DNA of 64,000 nt, taken from the IMG/VR virus record IMGVR_UViG_3300030060_003974, positions 1-64,000 of that record; one strand, written 5' to 3'. Source of the DNA: an uncultured virus (IMG/VR IMGVR_UViG_3300030060_003974) (Duplodnaviria; Heunggongvirae; Uroviricota; Caudoviricetes). The number at the start of each line of letters is the position of its first letter. Position 1 is the stretch's first letter. The notes under the pieces were generated by a model. That model did no database searches. It saw only the letters and a list, made by a program, of their open reading frames with translations, and was not told where the DNA came from. A program made the translations under genes and the position numbers. Below, piece after piece: positions 1-64,000 of this stretch.

Positions 1-226
1 CACAGATTGCCTCGAGTAGATTGTCATCATAGTAGTACACATCCTCAAGTATGCTTGTTTTACCACTCATATCATCAGTAAAAATATAGACATCATAACT
101 GTCTGCAGTTTCCTGTGAATGAATCATATAATCTAGTCCACTAAAATCACTTGTAGTGATTTCTAGTCGTAGATGTTCGTTAACAAATTGCTTGAATGTT
201 AATACATTTAACTCGTGATTTTTCAT
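1..226 (-). CDS. Early hypothetical protein, 3'-truncated by window edge (MKNHELNVLTFKQFVNEHLRLEITT...)
   Basis: Hand-translated open frame from ATG at 226 to the window start; preceded by the ACTATCAAATTATG leader shared with other early genes. Confidence 0.75.
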   Translation of the reverse strand, partial: MKNHELNVLTFKQFVNEHLRLEITTSDFSGLDYMIHSQETADSYDVYIFTDDMSGKTSILEDVYYYDDNLLEAIC

Positions 227-248
227 AATTTGATAGTTTATTGTGATT

Positions 249-347
249 ATTATAAGACACCTCTCAGATAGTTTCGTTGCTATCACTAATCGAGCCTATT
301 CACTCTCTTCAAGGTGTTTCGGATTTTGAATCCTCATCAGTTATAAT
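249..347 (-). ncRNA. Type I hammerhead ribozyme HHR-1
   Basis: Minus strand: AUUAUAA CUGAUGA GGAUU-CAA-AAUCC GAA ACACCU-(49 nt)-AGGUGU C UUAUAAU; intact core, three stems, GUC site (cut after 256). Confidence 0.93.
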
Positions 348-349
348 GG

Positions 350-550
350 TTAAGCATTGTTAATCGCACCCTCATAAGAGGTTAGATTATTAGATTCCAT
401 TTCTAGTATTGTTAGCTTTGCAACCCTGATACACATTGAATATTCTGCAGGAGAAATTGATGTGTTATTGTCAAACATTTTGTTAGCTACATTCATAGCT
501 ATTTTCATATCGTTTTCAGGTTCAATACTAATAGTTTTTACTGTACTCAT
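350..550 (-). CDS. Early hypothetical protein (66 aa)
   Basis: ORF track; flanked by HHR-2 and HHR-1; ACTATCAATTATG leader. Confidence 0.8.
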   Translation of the reverse strand: MSTVKTISIEPENDMKIAMNVANKMFDNNTSISPAEYSMCIRVAKLTILEMESNNLTSYEGAINNA

Positions 551-569
551 AATTGATAGTTTTTATTGT

Positions 570-669
570 GATTAATGACTACCAACCAAAGTGGGATACC
601 GACTTACCGACTAGTGCGTTATGGTTGATAGTTTCGTAGGTGTTTAAACCTTTACTCATCAGATTAATC
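570..669 (-). ncRNA. Type I hammerhead ribozyme HHR-2
   Basis: Minus strand: GAUUAAU CUGAUGA GU(AA)AGGU-UUAAAC-ACCUAC GAA ACUAUCAACCA-(33 nt)-UGGUUGGUAGU C AUUAAUC; 11-bp stem III with a U.G wobble that pairs only on the - strand; cut after 577. Confidence 0.92.
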
Positions 670-673
670 TTGA

Positions 674-736
674 TTAGATGAACACAACCTCAAATTCATT
701 TGAGATGTCTTCTAGAGCAATTTCATAGCTTTCCAT
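674..736 (-). CDS. Possible 20-aa acidic micro-ORF (MESYEIALEDISNEFEVVFI)
   Basis: Hand-translated; starts 1 nt after the stop of 738..1088 and ends just before HHR-2. Confidence 0.4.
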   Translation of the reverse strand: MESYEIALEDISNEFEVVFI

Positions 737-737
737 A

Positions 738-1088
738 TTAGTAGTTTTTGTGATTAATAATGTATTTGTTTAATTTGTATTTATTAGATGAATCTAGCAT
801 CATAAAGAATTCATAAAAGATGGTTGTTCCTGTTAAGGTCAACACTTGCGAATATTCATCATTTGTGATGGTTGGACTCACGTTTTTGTAACGCTTAATT
901 AACACTCTTTGCGTTGTTTTTAGCTTACTCATCAAGACATCCCATTTGTCATATAAATGGTCTCTCAAAGTAGGATTGTCTGCCCAAACTAATCTAATAA
1001 AATCATACTCAAAATTGTTCGCATAAACATTGAATTTGTTTATATGGTCAACTGAATTAGCAACTATATTACTATAAGTAGTTTTCAT
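738..1088 (-). CDS. Early hypothetical protein (116 aa), first gene after the leftward promoter
   Basis: ORF track; AT-rich leader. Confidence 0.8.
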   Translation of the reverse strand: MKTTYSNIVANSVDHINKFNVYANNFEYDFIRLVWADNPTLRDHLYDKWDVLMSKLKTTQRVLIKRYKNVSPTITNDEYSQVLTLTGTTIFYEFFMMLDSSNKYKLNKYIINHKNY

Positions 1089-1127
1089 AATATTTAAATT
1101 TAATTGTGATTAATGACTATCAAAACA

Positions 1128-1224
1128 AGTATTACAGGCACTGCATTCATCCTGAGATTATAGTGGTATGCGAGGTAGCCCACTTGTAGTTCATAACGCT
1201 ACGTAATTTTTATGCAGTAATACT
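1128..1224 (-). ncRNA. Structured 5' leader of the early transcript (multi-stem, unassigned)
   Basis: Closing stem AGUAUUAC/GUAAUACU and ACUGCAU/AUGCAGU enclosing hairpins GUAG..CUAC and AGUGG..CCACU; lies right after promoter 1246-1253. Confidence 0.45.
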
Positions 1225-1245
1225 CGGTATGTCAAAGAACAGGTG

Positions 1246-1253
1246 CAAATATA
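1246..1253 (-). promoter_or_regulatory. Bacteroidota-type -7 promoter element (TATATTTG) driving the leftward early operon
   Basis: Matches TAnnTTTG on the - strand upstream of the first leftward gene. Confidence 0.65.
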
Positions 1254-1669
1254 GTATATAAGTAGCATAATTCTATAACAACTTACTGACAATGTGTCTA
1301 CTTTCTTCTGCATATTTGTCACACTTTTAATGTTTTCTTTATCAATGACTTAAGTGTCAACACTACAATATAGTTTGTTTAGCAATGTAAGGTATCGTGG
1401 AGGTGTTATCCCTTTGCTATTGATGTGCAAAGGTACTTCGTAATTTAAACTTCGTTAAACGTAAGCTATGTGGGGTTACGTGGGATGGTCATTTTGGGGG
1501 AAGGTCAAAATAAAAAACCTAAAAAAATGCAGAAAAAATTTTCAGAATCAAGATTCGAAACAAAAAAAATATGACTTTCTATTATAGGGGGTGCAACGTA
1601 AGACGACATATAACCCTCAACCTCTAGATATCTAATATTTTTTTATTACCTTTACAAAAAAATAAAACT

Positions 1670-2148: not shown

Positions 2149-3789
2149 ATGCAAACAGACTCAGGATACATTCCTAAAAACCTAGACTTTGAAGAACACG
2201 CAAGAGAAAAATTAATAAACGGAATTACTGCAATTTCTAAAGCAGTTAAGAGTACGCTAGGCCCACGAGGCAGAACAGTACTAATAGAGTCTCCACAACA
2301 TACTAACGGAATAACGGTAACTAAAGACGGGGTTACAGTCGCAAGGTCAGTTGCTTTACTTGATCCAGTTGAAAACTTAGCAATACAAATGATGCAGGAA
2401 GCTGCGAGTCGTACTGCAACTTCGGCTGGTGATGGTACAACTACCGCTATTGTTTTGACTGAAGCTTTAGTAAAAGCTGGACAAACCCATATTAAAGCCA
2501 AAAATAATGTGACCGAAGTTATTAAGCATGTTAATAGGTTGTCGGCTGAGATTATTAATGACCTTAAAAAAAATAGTAAAAAAGTTTCTAAATCAAAACT
2601 TGGTGCAGTTGCAGCTATTTCAGCAAACAACGATAAGGAGCTGGGAAGTATTATTGCTGATGCTTATAAGCAAGTTGGGTCAGATGGAATTGTTACAGTT
2701 GAAAAATCAATGACAGCTGAAACTTACGCAGAGGTTACTAACGGTATTAAAGTAGATAGAGGATATACTTCACCACTCTTTATTAATAACCAAAAGAAAG
2801 ATGAATGTATTTTAGAAGGAGTAAGAGTTTTAGTTTGTGACCAGGAGATTACTAATGTATTACAAATTGAGAATATTTTAAAACCAATAATAAATAAAGG
2901 TGATAAACTTTTAATTATAGCTGAGTGTAATTCTAATGTTGTAAACACACTTGCTGCCAATGTAGTTCGTAATGGTTTAAAGTTCTGTAATATCACACCT
3001 CCATCATTTGGTTATAAAACCCATGAACTAATGCAGGATATTGCTTTATCAGTTGGTGCAAAATACTTTTCTGAAAAGACTGGTGATGACTTATCACTTA
3101 TGCAGTTTAGTGATTTAGGTTATGCTGATAAAATAATTATAGGAAAAGACAGTTCGGTGTTAATTAAAAACCAAGAGATGACTGAGGAAATAAAAGAAAG
3201 AATTAGTCAGCTTAGAGAACAGCAAGAAAATACCACACACTTAGGAGATAGAAAGTTTATTAATGAACGTATTGCTAGTTTAGCAGGTTCTATCGGTTGT
3301 ATTTATGTAGGAGGTAATAGTGATGTAGAGCAAAAAGAAAAATTTGACCGAGTCGATGACTCGGTATGCGCTGTGCGCAGCGCCTTGCAAGAAGGAATCT
3401 TACCAGGCGGGGGACTAGCTTTACTTAAATTATCTGAGCAACTACAATCAAAAGACGCTAATGATGACGAAAAGGTTGCTGTTAAAATATTGAAAGACGC
3501 ATTAACAACCCCATGCAAACAAATATTAATAAACGCAGGAATAGATTATAAAGAAATAATTAGAAATCTTTCAGTAACTCAAACCCACACCCTTAAAGGT
3601 AAGGCAGGAATGTCGTATGGGTATGATGTGAAAAATCAAAAATACGGTGATATGTATACTATGGGGGTTATTGATCCTCTAAAAGTTACAAAGAATGCTT
3701 TAATAAATGCAGTATCTGTAGCAACAACTATATTAAGTACTAATGCAATTATAACCCATAAGAGATTAAATGAAGAAAAGAAAGCTTAA
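2149..3789 (+). CDS. groEL: Phage-encoded chaperonin GroEL (Cpn60)
   Basis: 546 aa; STLGPRGR, VTKDGVTVA, AGDGTTTA, EGILPGGG, GVIDP motifs; no GGM tail. Confidence 0.97.
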   Translation: MQTDSGYIPKNLDFEEHAREKLINGITAISKAVKSTLGPRGRTVLIESPQHTNGITVTKDGVTVARSVALLDPVENLAIQMMQEAASRTATSAGDGTTTAIVLTEALVKAGQTHIKAKNNVTEVIKHVNRLSAEIINDLKKNSKKVSKSKLGAVAAISANNDKELGSIIADAYKQVGSDGIVTVEKSMTAETYAEVTNGIKVDRGYTSPLFINNQKKDECILEGVRVLVCDQEITNVLQIENILKPIINKGDKLLIIAECNSNVVNTLAANVVRNGLKFCNITPPSFGYKTHELMQDIALSVGAKYFSEKTGDDLSLMQFSDLGYADKIIIGKDSSVLIKNQEMTEEIKERISQLREQQENTTHLGDRKFINERIASLAGSIGCIYVGGNSDVEQKEKFDRVDDSVCAVRSALQEGILPGGGLALLKLSEQLQSKDANDDEKVAVKILKDALTTPCKQILINAGIDYKEIIRNLSVTQTHTLKGKAGMSYGYDVKNQKYGDMYTMGVIDPLKVTKNALINAVSVATTILSTNAIITHKRLNEEKKA

Positions 3790-59503: not shown

Positions 59504-59845
59504 TTACTCATCTTCTTGCATTTTATCTGCGTACTTACACGCAGAGTTATAAATATTTCTATCGTACTCTTGTACAAAGTCAACAAAGTAATTCATCCAT
59601 TCGTACAGTCCTGTATTCATAAAGCTATCCATCTCTCTTACTTCAATATCATCCTCATACTTCAATCCATTGATAGAATTTACAACATACTTGTCAGGTG
59701 CGATTAAGTCGCACAATTGTTGGATTTGACATACATCATCTTCTGCCTCCCAACCTTTACCAAATTGTAAGTCAGCAATTTTTTCTAAATTGTTTGCCGA
59801 CACAAAACTATATGTAGACATATAGCGTTCAGTTTTTATTCTCAT
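59504..59845 (-). CDS. Early hypothetical protein (113 aa)
   Basis: ORF track. Confidence 0.75.
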   Translation of the reverse strand: MRIKTERYMSTYSFVSANNLEKIADLQFGKGWEAEDDVCQIQQLCDLIAPDKYVVNSINGLKYEDDIEVREMDSFMNTGLYEWMNYFVDFVQEYDRNIYNSACKYADKMQEDE

Positions 59846-59856
59846 AATTTTAAATT

Positions 59857-60042
59857 TTAATAGTTGTCCATTCCTAAAAAGAGGGTGATGCTTGAATCAC
59901 CCCCATCCTCCCACACTTCTATAATGTCGAGGATGTTGTCTCTATCAGGAATATTTGCTTTAGTTAAGTTCGCCACAGGCAGAATCTCAGCATCCTGAAA
60001 TTCACAATCCTGTAGCATTTTTACTAGTTCTTTTACTTTCAT
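59857..60042 (-). CDS. Early hypothetical protein (61 aa)
   Basis: ORF track; MKVKELVKMLQ start. Confidence 0.75.
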   Translation of the reverse strand: MKVKELVKMLQDCEFQDAEILPVANLTKANIPDRDNILDIIEVWEDGGDSSITLFLGMDNY

Positions 60043-60224
60043 AATTTTAAATGTTTAGGGTCGTAATTTTTACCATCTTGATATTCGAGGATTGCATAAA
60101 CATCTGCTTTGTTATCATAAGCAAACTTCATTGCCTCTTTTTTAGTTTCAAATTCATAGTCATTCTCTATGTAATCTCCACTCTCTGTGTACTCTCGTAA
60201 TTCTACTATATAATTCATATTCAT
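60039..60224 (-). CDS. Early hypothetical protein (61 aa)
   Basis: ORF track; FETKKEA motif. Confidence 0.75.
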   Translation of the reverse strand: MNMNYIVELREYTESGDYIENDYEFETKKEAMKFAYDNKADVYAILEYQDGKNYDPKHLKL

Positions 60225-60231
60225 ATGTTTT

Positions 60232-60329
60232 GGTTAATAAGGAAGATGATACGACATATAATCATCTATTACATTGTTGGTTTCTCCTAACAACAACCTT
60301 TTCGGATATTGAATCCTCATCAGTTAACC
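60232..60329 (-). ncRNA. Type I hammerhead ribozyme HHR-7 (branched stem III, UUA site)
   Basis: GGUUAA CUGAUGA GGAU-UCAAU-AUCC GAA AAGG-(two hairpins)-CCUU A UUAACC; cut after 60238. Confidence 0.87.
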
Positions 60330-60979
60330 TCTATTGATTTAATTATTTCCTCGCATAGCTGAGGTGGTATCTTGCTTCTCTCGTGATTACCTTTTAGTCC
60401 CTGTGTACCTGTTTGGCTTCCTCTTGGTGCTGGTGTATGACACGAGTCCCCATTCTTACACATTGGTCGTGGAGTCCATCCCATATCGTTAGTCCAAATG
60501 TCAGTAGGTTTCATTCTTGAGTCGCCATATTGACAATAGGTAACAGTTTCTCTTCTGTGTTTCATATCCTCCCAATGAGGTGCTTTTCTCATTTTACCTC
60601 TTGGGTTTTCTACGTACCACAATAGCTTTGGATTCTTGTCTAGATAATCAGAAATGATTCCTAATGTTTTCTCGAAGATTTTTAAGCCGATCATCTCAGG
60701 ATCACGAGGGGTAAAATTCTCTCCTGACACCCATTTCTTACCTATACAGGCAACAGAAAAATCAGTACAGGGTGGAGATGCCCAAATGACATCAGGAATC
60801 CACAACTCATCTAACTCTCCTACATTCATTTCATTCATACGATAGTCCCAATCCATAATATCGCCCACCCAATTTGTATTGGGATAAGCTACATTATCAA
60901 CAGAGAATACCTCGTGACCACGTTGCTCGGCAACTTTGCCTACACTACGTGAACCACTAAATAGTTCTAGTATTTTCAT
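60320..60979 (-). CDS. C5 cytosine DNA methyltransferase
   Basis: LELFSG (motif I), ASPPC (IV), VENP (VI); stop codon lies in the HHR-7 core. Confidence 0.85.
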   Translation of the reverse strand: MKILELFSGSRSVGKVAEQRGHEVFSVDNVAYPNTNWVGDIMDWDYRMNEMNVGELDELWIPDVIWASPPCTDFSVACIGKKWVSGENFTPRDPEMIGLKIFEKTLGIISDYLDKNPKLLWYVENPRGKMRKAPHWEDMKHRRETVTYCQYGDSRMKPTDIWTNDMGWTPRPMCKNGDSCHTPAPRGSQTGTQGLKGNHERSKIPPQLCEEIIKSIEVN

Positions 60980-60992
60980 AATTGTTGGTTTT

Positions 60993-61072
60993 GATTAAGA
61001 CACAAGAGTAATAAGCTACCANNNNNNNNNNCACCTCTTGTGTTTCGGACATCAAGTCCTCATCAGTTAATC
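60993..61072 (-). ncRNA. Type I hammerhead ribozyme HHR-6
   Basis: GAUUAA CUGAUGA GGAC-UUGAU-GUCC GAA ACACAAGAG-(loop with N gap)-CUCUUGUGU C UUAAUC; cut after 60999. Confidence 0.9.
61022..61031. other. Assembly gap (10 N) inside the stem III loop of HHR-6
   Basis: Run of n characters. Confidence 0.99.
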
Positions 61073-61309
61073 TGTTTTGTATTTATCAACTAAATTTTCT
61101 AATGCATATATGTATTTAAATATATGGTCGCTTTTGTTTAGTTCATCTTGATACGCTTGGCTAAAAACGTATATCTCTTCTGCATCTAACTCTACTGACA
61201 AATGGCGTTCATTAAAATCAGTGAATTCAGGCTCATATATATACTCTAAAATTTTGTTAGATAAATGAATCATTTGTTCCTCTTGAAAAGGAGTAAGTTT
61301 GTTTTTCAT
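61067..61309 (-). CDS. Early hypothetical protein (80 aa)
   Basis: ORF track; TAA stop is part of stem I of HHR-6. Confidence 0.75.
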   Translation of the reverse strand: MKNKLTPFQEEQMIHLSNKILEYIYEPEFTDFNERHLSVELDAEEIYVFSQAYQDELNKSDHIFKYIYALENLVDKYKTD

Positions 61310-61590
61310 AATTTAATTGTTTTATATTCATCTAGATATTTGTCCCACAAAACGCTACCTGTTCTAATTAAATGTTTATTCGTTTCTGATAATCCATCAA
61401 TCGAAAATCCATCTACAGACAGGATAAAGTTTGTGTCTTTGGTTTTGTATTCTTTCATAATCAATTTGATACAGTAAGATACATAATCTAAATCTAATTC
61501 TCTGTCATAAGGTACTATGTCAATGAAATCAGATTTTCCAAATCCAGAATCTATTTGAATGTTATTATTACTATTAATTTTTTCTTTCAT
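61306..61590 (-). CDS. Early hypothetical protein (94 aa)
   Basis: ORF track; ACTATCAAATTATG leader. Confidence 0.75.
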   Translation of the reverse strand: MKEKINSNNNIQIDSGFGKSDFIDIVPYDRELDLDYVSYCIKLIMKEYKTKDTNFILSVDGFSIDGLSETNKHLIRTGSVLWDKYLDEYKTIKL

Positions 61591-61608
61591 AATTTGATAG
61601 TGTTATTG

Positions 61609-61671
61609 GTTTGTACCACCAAAACCCCAACACGTTTTACTGTGTTGAGGTAAGGGCAGATAATCACAAAC
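61609..61671 (-). ncRNA. Long intergenic hairpin (motif B, copy 2)
   Basis: Minus strand GUUUGU..UCUGCCCUUACCUCAACAC-AGUAAAAC-GUGUUGGGGUUUUGGUGGU-ACAAAC. Confidence 0.55.
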
Positions 61672-61675
61672 TAAA

Positions 61676-61921
61676 TCAGGATGCGTTTAAGGGCGATTCT
61701 ATATTGTACTCGCCATCCATAATAATTGCATCAATAATTTCTTCTTCATAATTGTATAGGACATCAGTGACATCATCTCCATTGAGAATCATTTTATCTA
61801 TTGTAATCTCCTCAATAGGTGGGGAATCATAACTTCCTGACTCAACGTAGTGTTCGTAATAAACTTCTACTACATTGTTTTCGGACAGTTCCCAATCGAA
61901 TTGTAATTTAGTAGCTTTCAT
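61676..61921 (-). CDS. Early acidic hypothetical protein (81 aa)
   Basis: ORF track. Confidence 0.75.
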   Translation of the reverse strand: MKATKLQFDWELSENNVVEVYYEHYVESGSYDSPPIEEITIDKMILNGDDVTDVLYNYEEEIIDAIIMDGEYNIESPLNAS

Positions 61922-61923
61922 AA

Positions 61924-62178
61924 TTATAATGTTGGTATTGTTTCATAACCTTTGATTGTAGTGAACAACGCACCACCATCATTACCCTCATCATCCATAG
62001 ATGAATAGAGCCAAAACTTCTCGCCTTTTTTGTTTTCCATTAACATACATAAAGGAGATTTGTACCACATCATGTCTTCTACTACTTCTTCAGACATATA
62101 CTCGACTTTAATTATCTTACATCCTAAAAGATGTTTCTTTGCTAAATCAGTCCAACGTGTTTCTGTGTTTGTATTCAT
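61924..62178 (-). CDS. Early hypothetical protein (84 aa)
   Basis: ORF track; DDEGNDGGAL motif. Confidence 0.78.
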   Translation of the reverse strand: MNTNTETRWTDLAKKHLLGCKIIKVEYMSEEVVEDMMWYKSPLCMLMENKKGEKFWLYSSMDDEGNDGGALFTTIKGYETIPTL

Positions 62179-62199
62179 TTTTGATAGTATTATAGGTTT

Positions 62200-62254
62200 G
62201 TAAATGACACCTACATTGTAGGTGTTTCGGATATTTAATCCTCATCAGATTTAC
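62200..62254 (-). ncRNA. Type I hammerhead ribozyme HHR-5 (minimal)
   Basis: GUAAAU CUGAUGA GGAU-UAAAU-AUCC GAA ACACCUAC-AAU-GUAGGUGU C AUUUAC; cut after 62206. Confidence 0.95.
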
Positions 62255-62405
62255 TTTCTCTTAGATTTTCTCTTGCGATTGCATTCTCTTTTGCTCGACA
62301 ATATACACTGTAGTGATTTTCACGTACATAATCCATAAAGTCAGTATAAAAAAGAATATCATCTTCTAAATTTAAGAGGTCTGTTGTCCATAGTTTTGTT
62401 TTCAT
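62235..62405 (-). pseudogene. Probable small gene with a 1-nt frameshift near its start (or sequencing error)
   Basis: The ATG at 62405 is out of frame with a ~55-codon frame (TKLWTTDLLNLEDD...KSDED*); one extra A gives MKTKLW... Confidence 0.4.
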
Positions 62406-62815
62406 TTCTTAAAGGTTTTAATAAAGTTATTTACTGTATCATCAAATTTAATTTGATAATCATAATCTCGCATTTGTATACGAATTTTGTTGTCACTATT
62501 TGCATAAACAAAATATGTATATTCTTCCCAACAGTCATTGCTATTAGGTAGATTAACATAAATATTTCCACGTGGATTATCGTTTTTTAACGCACATAAT
62601 GTTAGAGCAGTTAACTCTTCCATCCCATTGGCGTATTTCACTGAGGCAGATGCTTCATTATGAATAACTCCATTGGTCAACGTAAATTGTTGCAGAATCT
62701 CTGCTAATTCAACTCCGTGTGCATCAGGATAACCATCATAGTGTCTATACATAGTTAATAAAGTAGAAGAACCTCTTCCACCATTTTCGAAATGTGTTAA
62801 ACTTCGTGTTCCCAT
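62402..62815 (-). CDS. Early phage protein (MGTRS...YRHYDGYP motif)
   Basis: ORF track; recognisable conserved-looking N-terminal motif. Confidence 0.8.
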   Translation of the reverse strand: MGTRSLTHFENGGRGSSTLLTMYRHYDGYPDAHGVELAEILQQFTLTNGVIHNEASASVKYANGMEELTALTLCALKNDNPRGNIYVNLPNSNDCWEEYTYFVYANSDNKIRIQMRDYDYQIKFDDTVNNFIKTFKK

Positions 62816-62833
62816 AATTGATAGTTTTTATGT

Positions 62834-62892
62834 ATTATAAGACACCTGTGTTTGACAGGCGTTTCGGATTTTAAATCCTCATCAGTTATAAT
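62834..62892 (-). ncRNA. Type I hammerhead ribozyme HHR-4
   Basis: AUUAUAA CUGAUGA GGAUU-UAA-AAUCC GAA ACGCCUGU-CAAAC-ACAGGUGU C UUAUAAU; G.U wobble valid only on the - strand; cut after 62841. Confidence 0.95.
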
Positions 62893-63200
62893 TGAAATTG
62901 TCTAAGAAAATATCTGTACAGGTTTTTGACTCCTACTATTCTATTCTTCCACTGAGCATCTTGTGTTTTGTAAGTTCTAGTGGTTGTGTCATAGAAGACA
63001 TTTCCTGAACAATACCATTGATGAAAATGGTATCTTCTAAGATTAGATTTATTCGGTTTACCTTTTAAATCGTATTCAGCGATTTTATCTTCAGTTAATT
63101 TATCTTTAACCTCTTGTAAACTCCACTTGTATCCATCCTCTTCAAAAAACTCTTGATAGAATCGAAGAAACTTGATACTGTAATTGAATTGATTGTACAT
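62886..63200 (-). CDS. Early hypothetical protein (104 aa)
   Basis: ORF track; TAA stop abuts the HHR-4 core. Confidence 0.78.
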   Translation of the reverse strand: MYNQFNYSIKFLRFYQEFFEEDGYKWSLQEVKDKLTEDKIAEYDLKGKPNKSNLRRYHFHQWYCSGNVFYDTTTRTYKTQDAQWKNRIVGVKNLYRYFLRQFQL

Positions 63201-63213
63201 AATTGATAGTTTT

Positions 63214-63269
63214 GATTAGGACACCTGTTCGCACAGGTGTTTCGGATACTGAATCCTCATCAGCTAATC
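63214..63269 (-). ncRNA. Type I hammerhead ribozyme HHR-3
   Basis: GAUUAG CUGAUGA GGAU-UCAGU-AUCC GAA ACACCUGU-GCGA-ACAGGUGU C CUAAUC; GNRA tetraloop on the - strand; cut after 63220. Confidence 0.95.
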
Positions 63270-63385
63270 TCAATGTAGAAAATCCACATTCCAACATAAA
63301 ATATCAACCCTAGAAAAACTAGGAAGAATAATTCATAGAAGAAATTGATTGGGTCTTCTTTGATAGATTTAAAAAATTCTCTCAT
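63260..63385 (-). CDS. Small single-TM membrane protein (41 aa)
   Basis: Hand-translated MREFFKSIKEDPINFFYELFFLVFLGLIFYVGMWIFYIEIS; TGA stop lies in the HHR-3 core. Confidence 0.7.
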   Translation of the reverse strand: MREFFKSIKEDPINFFYELFFLVFLGLIFYVGMWIFYIEIS

Positions 63386-63403
63386 AATTAATTGTTTTAG
63401 TTA

Positions 63404-63796
63404 TTAAAATTTGATTGTCCCTTTACTGTTAACCTCATTGTAATGAGAATCCTTAAACTCTTCTACAAGGAATTCTCTATCTTCATCACTCAAGATGTTA
63501 TGCCAGATGAATTCAAACTTCCTGTCGTGAATCGTATCGTGATAGTGATGATGCTCATACAATTTGTCATATCGTTCAACCTCTCTTTTATGTCTAGCTT
63601 CAACTGTCTCTACACGTTGCAGTGCTTCATCCAATTGAATCTGTCTATTTTTGGCTAAACTTGTCCATTGTAAAAGTCCATAGAGCATCTCAATTTTTGA
63701 GGTTTTAAGTGCCTCTTGGACATCTTCCTCAGTATGCTGAGGAAAGTGTCTTAAGAGCATCTCTTTGTCAATAATAATATCAGTATTTATTTTCAT
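63404..63796 (-). CDS. Early hypothetical protein (130 aa)
   Basis: ORF track. Confidence 0.75.
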   Translation of the reverse strand: MKINTDIIIDKEMLLRHFPQHTEEDVQEALKTSKIEMLYGLLQWTSLAKNRQIQLDEALQRVETVEARHKREVERYDKLYEHHHYHDTIHDRKFEFIWHNILSDEDREFLVEEFKDSHYNEVNSKGTIKF

Positions 63797-63812
63797 AATT
63801 TGTTAATTAGAT

Positions 63813-63999
63813 TCAGTGCTTTTTTAATTGTTTTCGCAGTATATTGTGCGTTCTGAAAGTGGAAATAATCTTCGCCAATATTGGCTAGAAATTCTAGATT
63901 CCATTTAACAACATCTAAAGCATTTTTAGAATCGGTTCTTGTGTAACCCTTACTGCACTTTGCAGTAGGTTTTGATGTGTTGATGACTGTGCTTTTAGA
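63813..63999 (-). CDS. Early hypothetical protein, 5'-truncated by window edge
   Basis: Hand-translated open frame SKSTVINTSKP...AKTIKKH*. Confidence 0.6.
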
Positions 64000-64000
64000 C

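What the first reader, a model, noticed from the sequence alone, without database searches (positions are those of the whole stretch)
60232..63269. Array of hammerhead ribozymes punctuating the phage early operon (five here, two more at 249-669)
Seen: a recurring + strand string (TTTCGGA..TCCTCATCAG) reads on the - (coding) strand as the full hammerhead core CUGAUGA-stem II-GAAA-stem III-NUH-stem I. Copies lie at 60232-60329, 60993-61072, 62200-62254, 62834-62892 and 63214-63269, plus 249-347 and 570-669. Stem sequences differ but stay paired (stem I AUUAUAA, GAUUAAU, GAUUAG, GUAAAU, GAUUAA, GGUUAA), and G.U wobbles and a GCGA tetraloop work only on the coding strand. Every copy sits at a gene junction and would cut 13-29 nt before the next ATG. 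I found none in the ~48 kb late region. Established: type I hammerheads self-cleave after NUH, leaving 5'-OH and 2',3'-cyclic phosphate ends; T7 cuts its early transcript with host RNase III. Inference: this phage cuts its early polycistronic RNA into separate mRNAs without a host nuclease, each with a short A-rich leader and a 5'-OH end that 5'-monophosphate-stimulated nucleases handle poorly. Isolated hammerheads in phages are known; such a regular per-junction array is not familiar to me, though novelty is unverified.
Basis: partly seen in the sequence, partly recalled or inferred. Interest (0 to 1): 0.95.

Follow-up and report, generated by a model that had tools for sequence, protein, structure and literature searches.

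The report
Hammerhead ribozyme array in phage operon
Eight genuine-looking self-cutting hammerhead RNAs separate the small early genes of an uncultured marine phage, a clean and large example of an arrangement already described for phages in 2011.

Summary
A strict type I hammerhead descriptor finds all 7 claimed copies at the stated coordinates and cut sites, all on the minus (coding) strand. 200 shuffles gave a mean of 0.025 hits. An eighth locus lies just outside the window, at genome 64055-64158. No Rfam model reaches its threshold, so membership rests on the intact core, the NUH site, three helices with compensatory changes, and conservation at the same gene junctions in related phage contigs.

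The copies do not sit at every junction. They bound units of 1-4 genes, and one junction has a conserved terminator-like hairpin instead.

The novelty claim fails. Perreault et al. 2011 (PMC3088659) described clustered hammerheads flanking genes in prophages and proposed the same transcript-processing role. IMG/VR contigs hold arrays of up to 13, and this scan has logged many such arrays on other DNA.

No RNA data exist for this phage, so cleavage is inferred.

Verdict: real, a new member of a known kind, of modest interest.

The parts
570..669 (-). Hammerhead 1 (type I). Stem I is GAUUAAU (7 bp). Stem II is an unusual 20-nt form with an AA bulge. Stem III is extended (53 nt). The site is GUC, cut after 577. 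It lies between a very short ORF and the 66-aa gene that starts at 550.
   Evidence: Descriptor. The MFE fold gives the three-stem hammerhead shape. The same stem I and stem II occur at the same junction in L026, L063, L019 and L044.
249..347 (-). Hammerhead 2. Stem I is AUUAUAA (7 bp). Stem III is 59 nt with a 43-nt insert. The site is GUC, cut after 256, 29 nt before the ATG at 226.
   Evidence: A second copy without the insert lies at the other contig end, genome 64638-64583. The ortholog in L026 has a 17-nt stem III.
63214..63269 (-). Hammerhead 4. Stem I is GAUUAG. Stem III is 7 bp with a GCGA loop. The site is GUC, cut after 63220, with a 19-nt leader to the ATG at 63200. (Hammerhead 3 is at genome 64158-64055, outside the window.)
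   Evidence: R1 score 78.6 bits. The orthologs in L026 and L063 have a different but still paired stem III. A metagenome variant at 63230 turns the loop from GCGA to GCAA, which keeps GNRA.
62834..62892 (-). Hammerhead 5. Stem I is AUUAUAA. Stem III contains a G.U pair. The cut is after 62841, with a 25-nt leader to the ATG at 62815.
   Evidence: R1 score 78.9 bits. This is the only element with any Rfam match: RAGATH-1-hammerhead at 26 bits, below the 56.3-bit gathering score. The preceding 104-aa gene together with this element is absent from L026 and L063.
62200..62254 (-). Hammerhead 6. Stem I is GUAAAU. The cut is after 62206, with a 27-nt leader to the ATG at 62178.
   Evidence: 76.5 bits. 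Orthologs lie at the same junction in L026, L063, L038 and L061. The L038 copy carries a 59-nt stem III.
60993..61072 (-). Hammerhead 7. Stem I is GAUUAA. Stem II is GGACU..GUCC. Stem III is 42 nt and holds the window's run of 10 N in its loop. The cut is after 60999, with a 19-nt leader to the DNA methyltransferase gene.
   Evidence: The orthologs in L026, L063 and L038 have stem II GGAUU..AUCC, a compensatory C-G to U-A change.
60232..60329 (-). Hammerhead 8, the weakest. Stem I is GGUUAA. The site is UUA. Only 3 bp close a branched 60-nt stem III. The cut is after 60238, with a 13-nt leader to the ATG at 60224.
   Evidence: The MFE fold is not the hammerhead fold. L061 has the same element at the same junction with a UUC site and a stem III that is 100% identical over 60 nt. 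The element and its 61-aa gene are absent from L026, L063 and L038.
61621..61650 (-). Terminator-like hairpin: 9 bp, an 8-nt loop, then UUUU. It occupies the one long junction of the array that has no hammerhead.
   Evidence: Read. It is invariant in L026 and L063. The consensus terminator scan did not list it.
59504..64000 (-). The part of the minus-strand early module inside the window. It holds about 17 tightly packed small genes, mostly without any family match, and a DNA methyltransferase at 60979-60320 flanked by hammerheads 7 and 8.
   Evidence: ORF maps. Pfam gave no matches in this part. PHROGs matched the methyltransferase to phrog_757 at 1e-31.
1..1088 (-). Start of the same module: genes 1088-738, 550-350 and 226-1. 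The last continues at the far end of the contig.
1089..1330 (-). Conserved non-coding region upstream of the first gene, the likely early promoter and 5' leader. Its last part repeats the 3' end of hammerhead 1 without a 5' half.
   Evidence: It is 92% identical to L063, while the gene downstream is only about 50% identical in protein. No hammerhead or Rfam match lies here. The promoter assignment is inference.

Best explanation
These are eight type I hammerhead self-cleaving ribozymes encoded on the coding strand of the phage's early operon, which consists of small genes.

Each element begins at or just after the stop codon of one gene; the stop lies in the 5' strand of stem I or in the TGA of CUGAUGA. 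Each ends 13-29 nt before the next start codon. As the long early transcript is made, each element folds and cuts itself after GUC (UUA in one copy). This divides the RNA into units of 1-4 genes.

Each upstream product keeps the stem II and stem III hairpins and a 2',3'-cyclic phosphate at its 3' end. Each downstream product starts with a 5'-OH, six or seven A/U-rich bases of the weak stem I, and a short A-rich leader.

Shown: the motifs, their placement, their conservation and their covariation. Inferred: that one long transcript exists, that cutting occurs in the cell, and that it serves to give each unit its own stability and translation without a host nuclease.
For: - All 13 core positions, the G10.1-C11.1 pair, the A15.1-U16.1 pair and an NUH site are intact in 8 of 8 loci.
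- The window holds 7 hits against 0.025 expected by chance, all on the coding strand.
- On 116 distinct related hammerheads, 99.8% of cells are paired and 16 of 16 pairs show changes on both sides. With partners slid by 1-3 columns, only 22-43% of cells are paired. That alignment was fitted to the model.
- Independent of that fit, orthologous junctions in L026, L063, L038 and L061 keep the core and stem I but change stems II and III in a compensatory way.
- In 175 distinct hammerheads from 106 sources, no source has copies on both strands. Stem I is exactly 6 bp in 154. An ORF of at least 30 aa starts within 200 nt of the cut in 172, mostly 15-34 nt after it. A long open frame ends within 45 nt before the core, or in it, in 148.
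- Position 7 beyond stem I is A opposite A in 149 of 153, and the stem II loop keeps U..A..U. This pattern fits a constrained tertiary contact.
- Perreault et al. 2011 showed efficient cleavage of comparable triple arrangements in vitro and in E. coli (PMC3088659, passages).
Against: - There is no RNA evidence. No RNA run holds this phage, and two metatranscriptome contig sets from matching samples laid nothing.
- No Rfam hammerhead family reaches its gathering score. RF00163 gives no match at all.
- No loop II to flank pseudoknot signal was found: 3.26 and 3.17 observed against 3.23 and 3.26 for permuted loops. Fast cutting at physiological Mg2+ is therefore unproven.
- Stem I is A/U-rich and is absent from the MFE fold of 4 of the 8 copies folded.
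- The 60329 copy prefers another fold.
- No promoter could be placed, so a single transcript is assumed from gene packing.
- Hammerheads were found in only 8 of 33 contigs that share the methyltransferase. They are absent from the GenBank relative MW202828.1, so they are dispensable for this phage type.
Confidence: 0.72

Rival explanations
1. The elements matter mainly as portable junction modules. The stretch of about 30 nt shared by all copies (core, stem II and the start of stem III), together with the common leader, gives homology for recombination. Through it, early accessory-gene cassettes are gained, lost and reshuffled, and RNA cutting is secondary. This reading does not exclude cleavage.
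For: - Own versus L026 and L063: a 104-aa gene plus its hammerhead is present only here, with the joint inside or next to a hammerhead.
- L063 lacks the 66-aa gene plus one hammerhead.
- Hammerhead 8 plus its 61-aa gene is present here and in L061 but not in L026, L063 or L038.
- Two stem III inserts recur at different junctions in different phages: the 347 insert at the GUAAAU junction of L038, and the L026-183 insert at the GUAAAU junction of L061.
- Gene order between hammerheads differs in L061/L019, L044 and L066.
Against: - Not all differences end at hammerheads. The 94-aa gene 61590-61306 is missing from L026 with no hammerhead at either edge.
- Protein identity to L026 varies as much within units (74% against 41%) as between them.
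- No statistical test was made.
- A recombination role would not explain strict conservation of the catalytic core, the NUH site and the pairing.
Confidence: 0.12
2. Cleavage is conditional. Either a ribosome terminating in stem I or the core prevents folding, which would couple cutting to translation of the upstream gene, or the long stem III inserts act as binding or sensor domains.
For: - The upstream stop codon lies in stem I or in the core in most copies. The commonest offsets from the core are -3 (29 copies) and +1 (22 copies) of 148.
- Stem III is 40 nt or longer in 24 of 175 copies.
- The 60-nt stem III of hammerhead 8 is 100% identical in L061, although the neighbouring proteins are 82-90% identical.
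- Perreault et al. 2011 raise regulated cleavage as a possibility.
Against: - The inserts are not conserved between junctions as a class and match no Rfam family.
- The same locus exists with and without the 43-nt insert, so the insert is dispensable.
- Most copies have a minimal stem III.
Confidence: 0.08
3. The elements no longer cut. They act only as structured 3' ends or as protein or nuclease sites, like simple punctuation hairpins, or they are selfish relics.
For: - The relative MW202828.1 has no hammerhead. It carries a 16-nt palindromic hairpin at the same kind of position, between a stop codon and a leader of about 20 nt.
- One junction here uses a plain hairpin.
- No cleavage data exist.
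Against: A hairpin role would not hold 13 unpaired core bases and the NUH site invariant across 8 loci here and 175 distinct copies elsewhere, while the helices vary freely.
Confidence: 0.06

Closest known systems
Clustered hammerhead ribozymes flanking genes in prophages (Perreault et al. 2011, PLoS Comput Biol, PMC3088659: Clostridium scindens, Azorhizobium caulinodans, Agrobacterium tumefaciens)
   Same: Several hammerheads lie in one orientation between single genes or short blocks of phage genes of varying identity, including an anti-restriction gene (ardA there, a DNA methyltransferase here). The proposed role is the same: processing a long phage transcript into shorter mRNAs.
   Different: The tested cases there were triple arrangements in prophages. 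Here 8 loci lie within about 6 kb of the early module of a 64.7-kb phage genome that shows no integrase in the parts I annotated. All are type I, with a very uniform build: a 6-bp stem I closed by G-C, an A opposite A beyond it, a 4-bp stem II and a 5-nt loop. I could not see that paper's figures or dataset, so the largest array it shows is unknown to me.
Type I hammerhead ribozyme (Rfam RF00163) and RAGATH-1 hammerhead (RF03152)
   Same: The same catalytic core, the same order of helices with stem I open, and an NUH cleavage site.
   Different: RF00163 gives no match at all. RF03152 scores 26 bits against a gathering score of 56.3, on one copy only. This subclass has no internal loop in stem I and no detectable pseudoknot.
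RNase III processing of the phage T7 early transcript (recalled textbook knowledge, not checked in a call)
   Same: An early polycistronic phage RNA is cut at intergenic structured sites into separate mRNAs that keep a 3' hairpin.
   Different: T7 depends on a host enzyme and on hairpins of about 20 bp or more. Here the RNA would cut itself and leave 5'-OH and cyclic-phosphate ends.
Repeated 16-nt palindromic hairpin in the related phage record MW202828.1 (seen here; I know of no publication)
   Same: It occupies the same position, just after a stop codon and about 20-30 nt before the next ATG of the small early genes, and it has a similar leader ending in ACUAUCAUG.
   Different: It is a plain hairpin of 6-7 bp with no catalytic core. 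Any cutting there would need a protein.

Membership tests
Hammerhead ribozyme, type I | Conserved core: CUGAUGA between stems I and II, and GAAA between stems II and III | tested here: met
   Exact in 8 of 8 loci: 7 in the window and 1 plus a duplicate in the contig tail.
Hammerhead ribozyme, type I | Cleavage triplet NUH (H is not G), with U16.1 paired to A15.1 and N paired into stem III | tested here: met
   GUC in 7 loci and UUA in the 60329 copy. The L061 ortholog of the latter has UUC.
Hammerhead ribozyme, type I | Three helices around the core, supported by compensatory changes | tested here: met
   99.8% of 1785 cells are paired and 16 of 16 pairs change on both sides; slid controls give 22-43% (on a model-fitted alignment). 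Orthologous junctions show paired changes in stems II and III.
Hammerhead ribozyme, type I | Topology: stems II and III closed by loops, stem I open | tested here: met
   True of all copies. No type II or type III arrangement occurs in the genome.
Hammerhead ribozyme, type I | Tertiary contact between stem I and stem II, needed for fast cleavage at low Mg2+ | tested here: inconclusive
   Complementarity between loop II and the flanks is no greater than for permuted loops. However, stem I is exactly 6 bp in 154 of 175 copies, A lies opposite A beyond it in 149 of 153, and the loop II positions U5, A7 and U9 are nearly fixed.
Hammerhead ribozyme, type I | Match to the curated Rfam model at its gathering score | tested here: not met
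   There are 0 matches at gathering score. RF00163 gives no match even at E of 10 or less. Only RF03152 matches, at 26 of 56.3 bits, on one copy. This is a criterion of the library, not a defining property of the RNA class.
Hammerhead ribozyme, type I | Site-specific self-cleavage giving 2',3'-cyclic phosphate and 5'-OH ends | not testable with these tools
   No RNA run holds the phage, and contigs cannot show ends.
Clustered phage hammerheads (Perreault et al. 2011) | Several hammerheads in one orientation flanking single genes or short gene blocks of a phage | tested here: met
   Eight loci on the coding strand bound units of 1-4 genes. The paper's wording was read.

The most novel reading that the evidence does not exclude
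The hammerhead together with its fixed leader is a portable junction cassette with two jobs. It cuts the RNA. Its near-identical core, stem II and leader sequence also act as the recombination homology by which this phage group gains, loses and reshuffles early accessory genes and swaps stem III domains between junctions. In this it would be loosely analogous to attC sites of integrons.

Because the upstream stop codon sits inside stem I or the core, cutting may also be gated by translation of the upstream gene.
Probability: 0.2. Interest if true: 0.55.

Novelty: new member of a known kind. Interest (0 to 1): 0.3.

Why it matters
The biological role of bacterial and phage hammerheads is still described as largely elusive (review PMC6765202, passages).

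This phage group offers a tidy natural comparison:
- close relatives with the same genes and 2 to 8 hammerheads in the stretches held;
- the same locus with and without a 43-nt stem III insert;
- one junction with a terminator-like hairpin;
- a more distant relative that uses a plain palindromic hairpin at the same positions.

That set could be used to test what self-cleavage adds over a simple hairpin, in mRNA stability, translation of the next gene or independence from host RNases. The very uniform build of these type I hammerheads also gives a well-defined subclass that the current Rfam models miss. It does not change what is known in kind.

Tried and rejected
- Rfam at gathering score and at permissive E-values, over the whole window and over the 3.1-kb array alone, gave no usable hammerhead match. 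RF00163 run over the whole genome gave none either.
- blastn of the 5-kb early region against GenBank phages gave no match.
- RNA evidence: no RNA holder is listed for the stretch. Two metatranscriptome contig sets from samples that hold the phage DNA laid nothing. Contigs could not have shown ends in any case.
- A loop II to flank pseudoknot: no signal above permuted controls.
- Type II and type III hammerheads anywhere in the genome: none.
- A Bacteroidota-type promoter pattern gave 3 matches against 5.3 expected, none on the minus strand upstream of the operon. The sigma-70 and terminator consensus scan was at chance level. The transcription start therefore remains unplaced.
- A ninth, degenerate hammerhead in the conserved leader at 1089-1330, suggested because it repeats the 3' end of hammerhead 1: no core, no model hit.
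- Stem III inserts as a repeated mobile element: they occur only in close relatives and nowhere else in the genome or loci.
- The paper PMC4509812 (Weinberg et al. 2015) is not held. Literature searches for larger phage arrays or an early-gene role returned nothing beyond Perreault 2011 and the 2019 review.


Full report
**Observation**

Read on the minus strand, the window shows at each claimed place the full type I hammerhead layout: stem I, CUGAUGA, a stem II hairpin, GAAA, a stem III hairpin, UH, and the return strand of stem I. A descriptor that asks for exactly this layout, with at least 3 bp per stem, finds 7 of the 7 claimed copies. Across 200 dinucleotide-preserving shuffles of the window the same descriptor gave a mean of 0.025 hits and never more than one.

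**Extent**

The window is the first 64,000 bases of a single 64,683-base viral contig. The remaining 683 bases hold an eighth hammerhead at genome 64158-64055 and a second copy of the 347-249 element at 64638-64583. The two contig ends overlap imperfectly, with 336 of 346 aligned bases identical. The main difference is a 43-nt insert in stem III of the 347 copy. These are therefore two versions of one locus, and the genome has eight hammerhead loci.

I built a covariance model from four short copies (A2, R1) and ran it without filters. It recovers the known copies and nothing else in the window; the next best hit has E about 0.9. A separate descriptor for type II and type III layouts found none in the genome.

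**Rfam**

No family reaches its gathering score. At permissive thresholds only the 62892 copy gives a match, to RAGATH-1-hammerhead at 26 bits against 56.3. RF00163 finds nothing in the genome. Family membership therefore rests on defining features and not on the curated models.

**Anatomy**

- All eight loci keep the 13 core bases, a G-C first pair in stem II, the A15.1-U16.1 pair, and GUC (UUA in the 60329 copy) at the site.
- Stem I is 6-7 bp and A/U-rich. It appears in the MFE fold of only half the copies, while stems II and III are always predicted.
- Folding energy does not tell the strands apart. The strand is set by the core and by G.U pairs.
- Stem III ranges from 16 to 66 nt.
- The 60329 copy is the weakest. 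Three base pairs close a branched stem III, and its MFE fold is a different structure.

**Context**

The plus strand from 2149 to 49213 encodes a GroEL-type chaperonin, terminase, portal and structural proteins. The minus strand runs from 1088 down through position 1, round the contig end, and on to 49369.

- It begins with about 20 small genes, almost all without a family match. The exception is a DNA methyltransferase, which is flanked by two hammerheads.
- It continues with a nucleotide-kinase-like protein, DnaA-like HTH proteins, an exonuclease, a primase-helicase, a helicase and a repair exonuclease.
- All hammerheads lie in the first stretch of about 6 kb of small genes. Calling this stretch 'early' is inference from that layout.

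The elements do not sit at every junction. They bound units of 1-4 genes whose members overlap or abut. One 85-nt junction instead holds a 9-bp hairpin followed by UUUU, which is invariant in two relatives. The upstream stop codon lies in or next to stem I, and the next ATG follows the cut by 13-29 nt. Four leaders in the window carry an exact 13-nt motif that ends in the start codon.

**Relatives**

An IMG/VR scan for the core plus the common stem II pattern gave 107 stretches.

- *Covariation.* R1 found 199 matches in the 72 loci I gave it; I omitted overlapping pieces of the same contig and the short unflanked loci. On the 150 best matches (116 distinct), 99.8% of cells are paired and all 16 pairs show changes on both sides. 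With partners slid by 1-3 columns, only 22-43% of cells pair. That alignment was fitted to the model.
- *Synteny, a check independent of that fit.* L026, L063, L038, L061/L019, L044 and L066 encode homologues of this phage's early proteins and GroEL. They carry hammerheads at the same junctions with the same stem I. Stem III is rewritten but still paired, and stem II shows G-C to A-U and C-G to U-A double changes.
- *Array size elsewhere.* L021 has 13 matches, L068 has 10, L059 has 9 and L040 has 8, each on one strand.
- *Common build.* In 175 distinct hammerheads from 106 of 107 sources, no source has copies on both strands. Stem I is exactly 6 bp in 154. An ORF of at least 30 aa starts within 200 nt of the cut in 172. 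A long frame ends just before or in the core in 148. Beyond stem I, A faces A in 149 of 153, and three loop II positions are nearly fixed. This set was seeded by one stem II pattern, so it describes a subclass and not all phage hammerheads.

**Patchiness**

In a set of relatives chosen through the methyltransferase, and so not chosen by ribozyme, hammerheads on the gene strand were found in 8 of 33 loci. These include all loci at 77% identity or more that were not cut at an edge.

The nearest GenBank record is MW202828.1, with GroEL 56% and primase 65% identical. It has no hammerhead in 15 kb of its equivalent module. It does have 14 copies of a 16-nt palindromic hairpin, 8 of them in intergenic gaps just after a stop codon and about 20-30 nt before the next ATG. 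Different RNA elements thus occupy the same punctuation position in related phages.

The more distant primase matches are to phages of Flavobacterium, Maribacter, Polaribacter and Bacteroides. DNA holders of this sequence are marine metagenomes.

**Mechanism**

The best reading is co-transcriptional self-cleavage that divides the early RNA into units. Each unit would end in the stem II and stem III hairpins with a cyclic phosphate, and each would start with a 5'-OH and a short unstructured A-rich leader once the weak stem I falls apart.

The sequence features are shown. The single transcript, cleavage in the cell and the benefit are inferred. No RNA run holds this phage, and the two metatranscriptome contig sets laid nothing. 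The one variant seen inside an element in another metagenome changes a GCGA loop to GCAA, which keeps the GNRA form.

The rival readings are:
- a recombination-module role, supported by three cassette differences that end at hammerheads and by stem III inserts shared between different junctions, but weakened by differences that end elsewhere;
- conditional cleavage;
- a structure-only role.

**Comparison with the literature**

Perreault et al. [quoted passage not shown] A 2019 review (PMC6765202, passages) repeats the idea and calls the biological roles largely elusive. cyPhyRNA-seq detected self-cleavage of three type II hammerheads near phage-like genes in D. vulgaris RNA (PMC8782182, passages).

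My searches found no paper on larger arrays or on this phage group. Weinberg et al. 2015 is not held.

This scan's own earlier notes list many hammerhead arrays of 6-16 copies in phage early operons on other DNA, all filed under the 2011 description. None concerns this genome or sequence.

**Verdict**

This is a genuine, well-conserved array of eight type I hammerheads in the early module of an uncultured marine GroEL-encoding phage. It is a new member of a known kind. Its value lies in the natural comparison set around it and in defining a uniform type I subclass that Rfam misses, not in a new principle.

Noticed in passing
L108 (MW202828.1 42000-57000), e.g. 2542, 2809, 3597, 3887, 5654, 6930, 7875: The related freshwater phage record has no hammerheads. 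It has 14 copies of a perfect 16-nt palindromic hairpin (6 bp, loop UUAA). Eight of them lie in intergenic gaps, just after a stop codon and about 20-30 nt before the next ATG of its small early genes. Others lie inside annotated CDSs. Function unknown.
   Followed up: partly
window 1-392 and genome 64335-64683 (L001): The two contig ends overlap imperfectly: 336 of 346 aligned bases are identical, with a 43-nt and two 3-nt indels. The contig looks like a circular or permuted genome closed across two strain variants. The 43-nt indel is the stem III insert of the 347 hammerhead.
   Followed up: yes
window 1089-1330, minus strand: The non-coding region before the first early gene is 92% identical to L063, although the gene after it is only about 50% identical in protein. 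It ends with a copy of the last 19 nt of hammerhead 1 (cut site, stem I return strand and start of the leader) but has no core or 5' half. It is a possible promoter and leader, or a remnant of recombination at a hammerhead.
   Followed up: partly
window 548-560, 62176-62188, 62813-62825, 63198-63210 (minus strand): A 13-nt leader motif ending in the start codon (ACTATCAAWWATG) occurs exactly four times, each time after a hammerhead. Near-copies follow the terminator-like hairpin and the other hammerheads, and MW202828.1 leaders end in a similar ACTATCATG. It may be a translation-initiation signal of these phages.
   Followed up: partly
window 61022-61031: A run of 10 N lies inside the stem III loop of the 61072 hammerhead. 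It does not affect the call. I did not try to read it from other data.
   Followed up: no
window 60240-60299 and L061 4278-4337: The branched 60-nt stem III of hammerhead 8 is 100% identical in a relative whose flanking proteins are 82-90% identical, while the stem II loop and the cleavage base differ. The reason for this unusually strong conservation is unknown.
   Followed up: partly
window 2149-3786, plus strand: A full-length GroEL-type chaperonin gene (Pfam Cpn60_TCP1, 4e-66) lies divergent from the early module. Homologues of 77-83% identity occur in the related IMG/VR contigs, and one of 56% in MW202828.1.
   Followed up: partly
window 63230: One marine metagenome contig carries C>T on the plus strand here. 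This changes the stem III tetraloop of the 63269 hammerhead from GCGA to GCAA.
   Followed up: no
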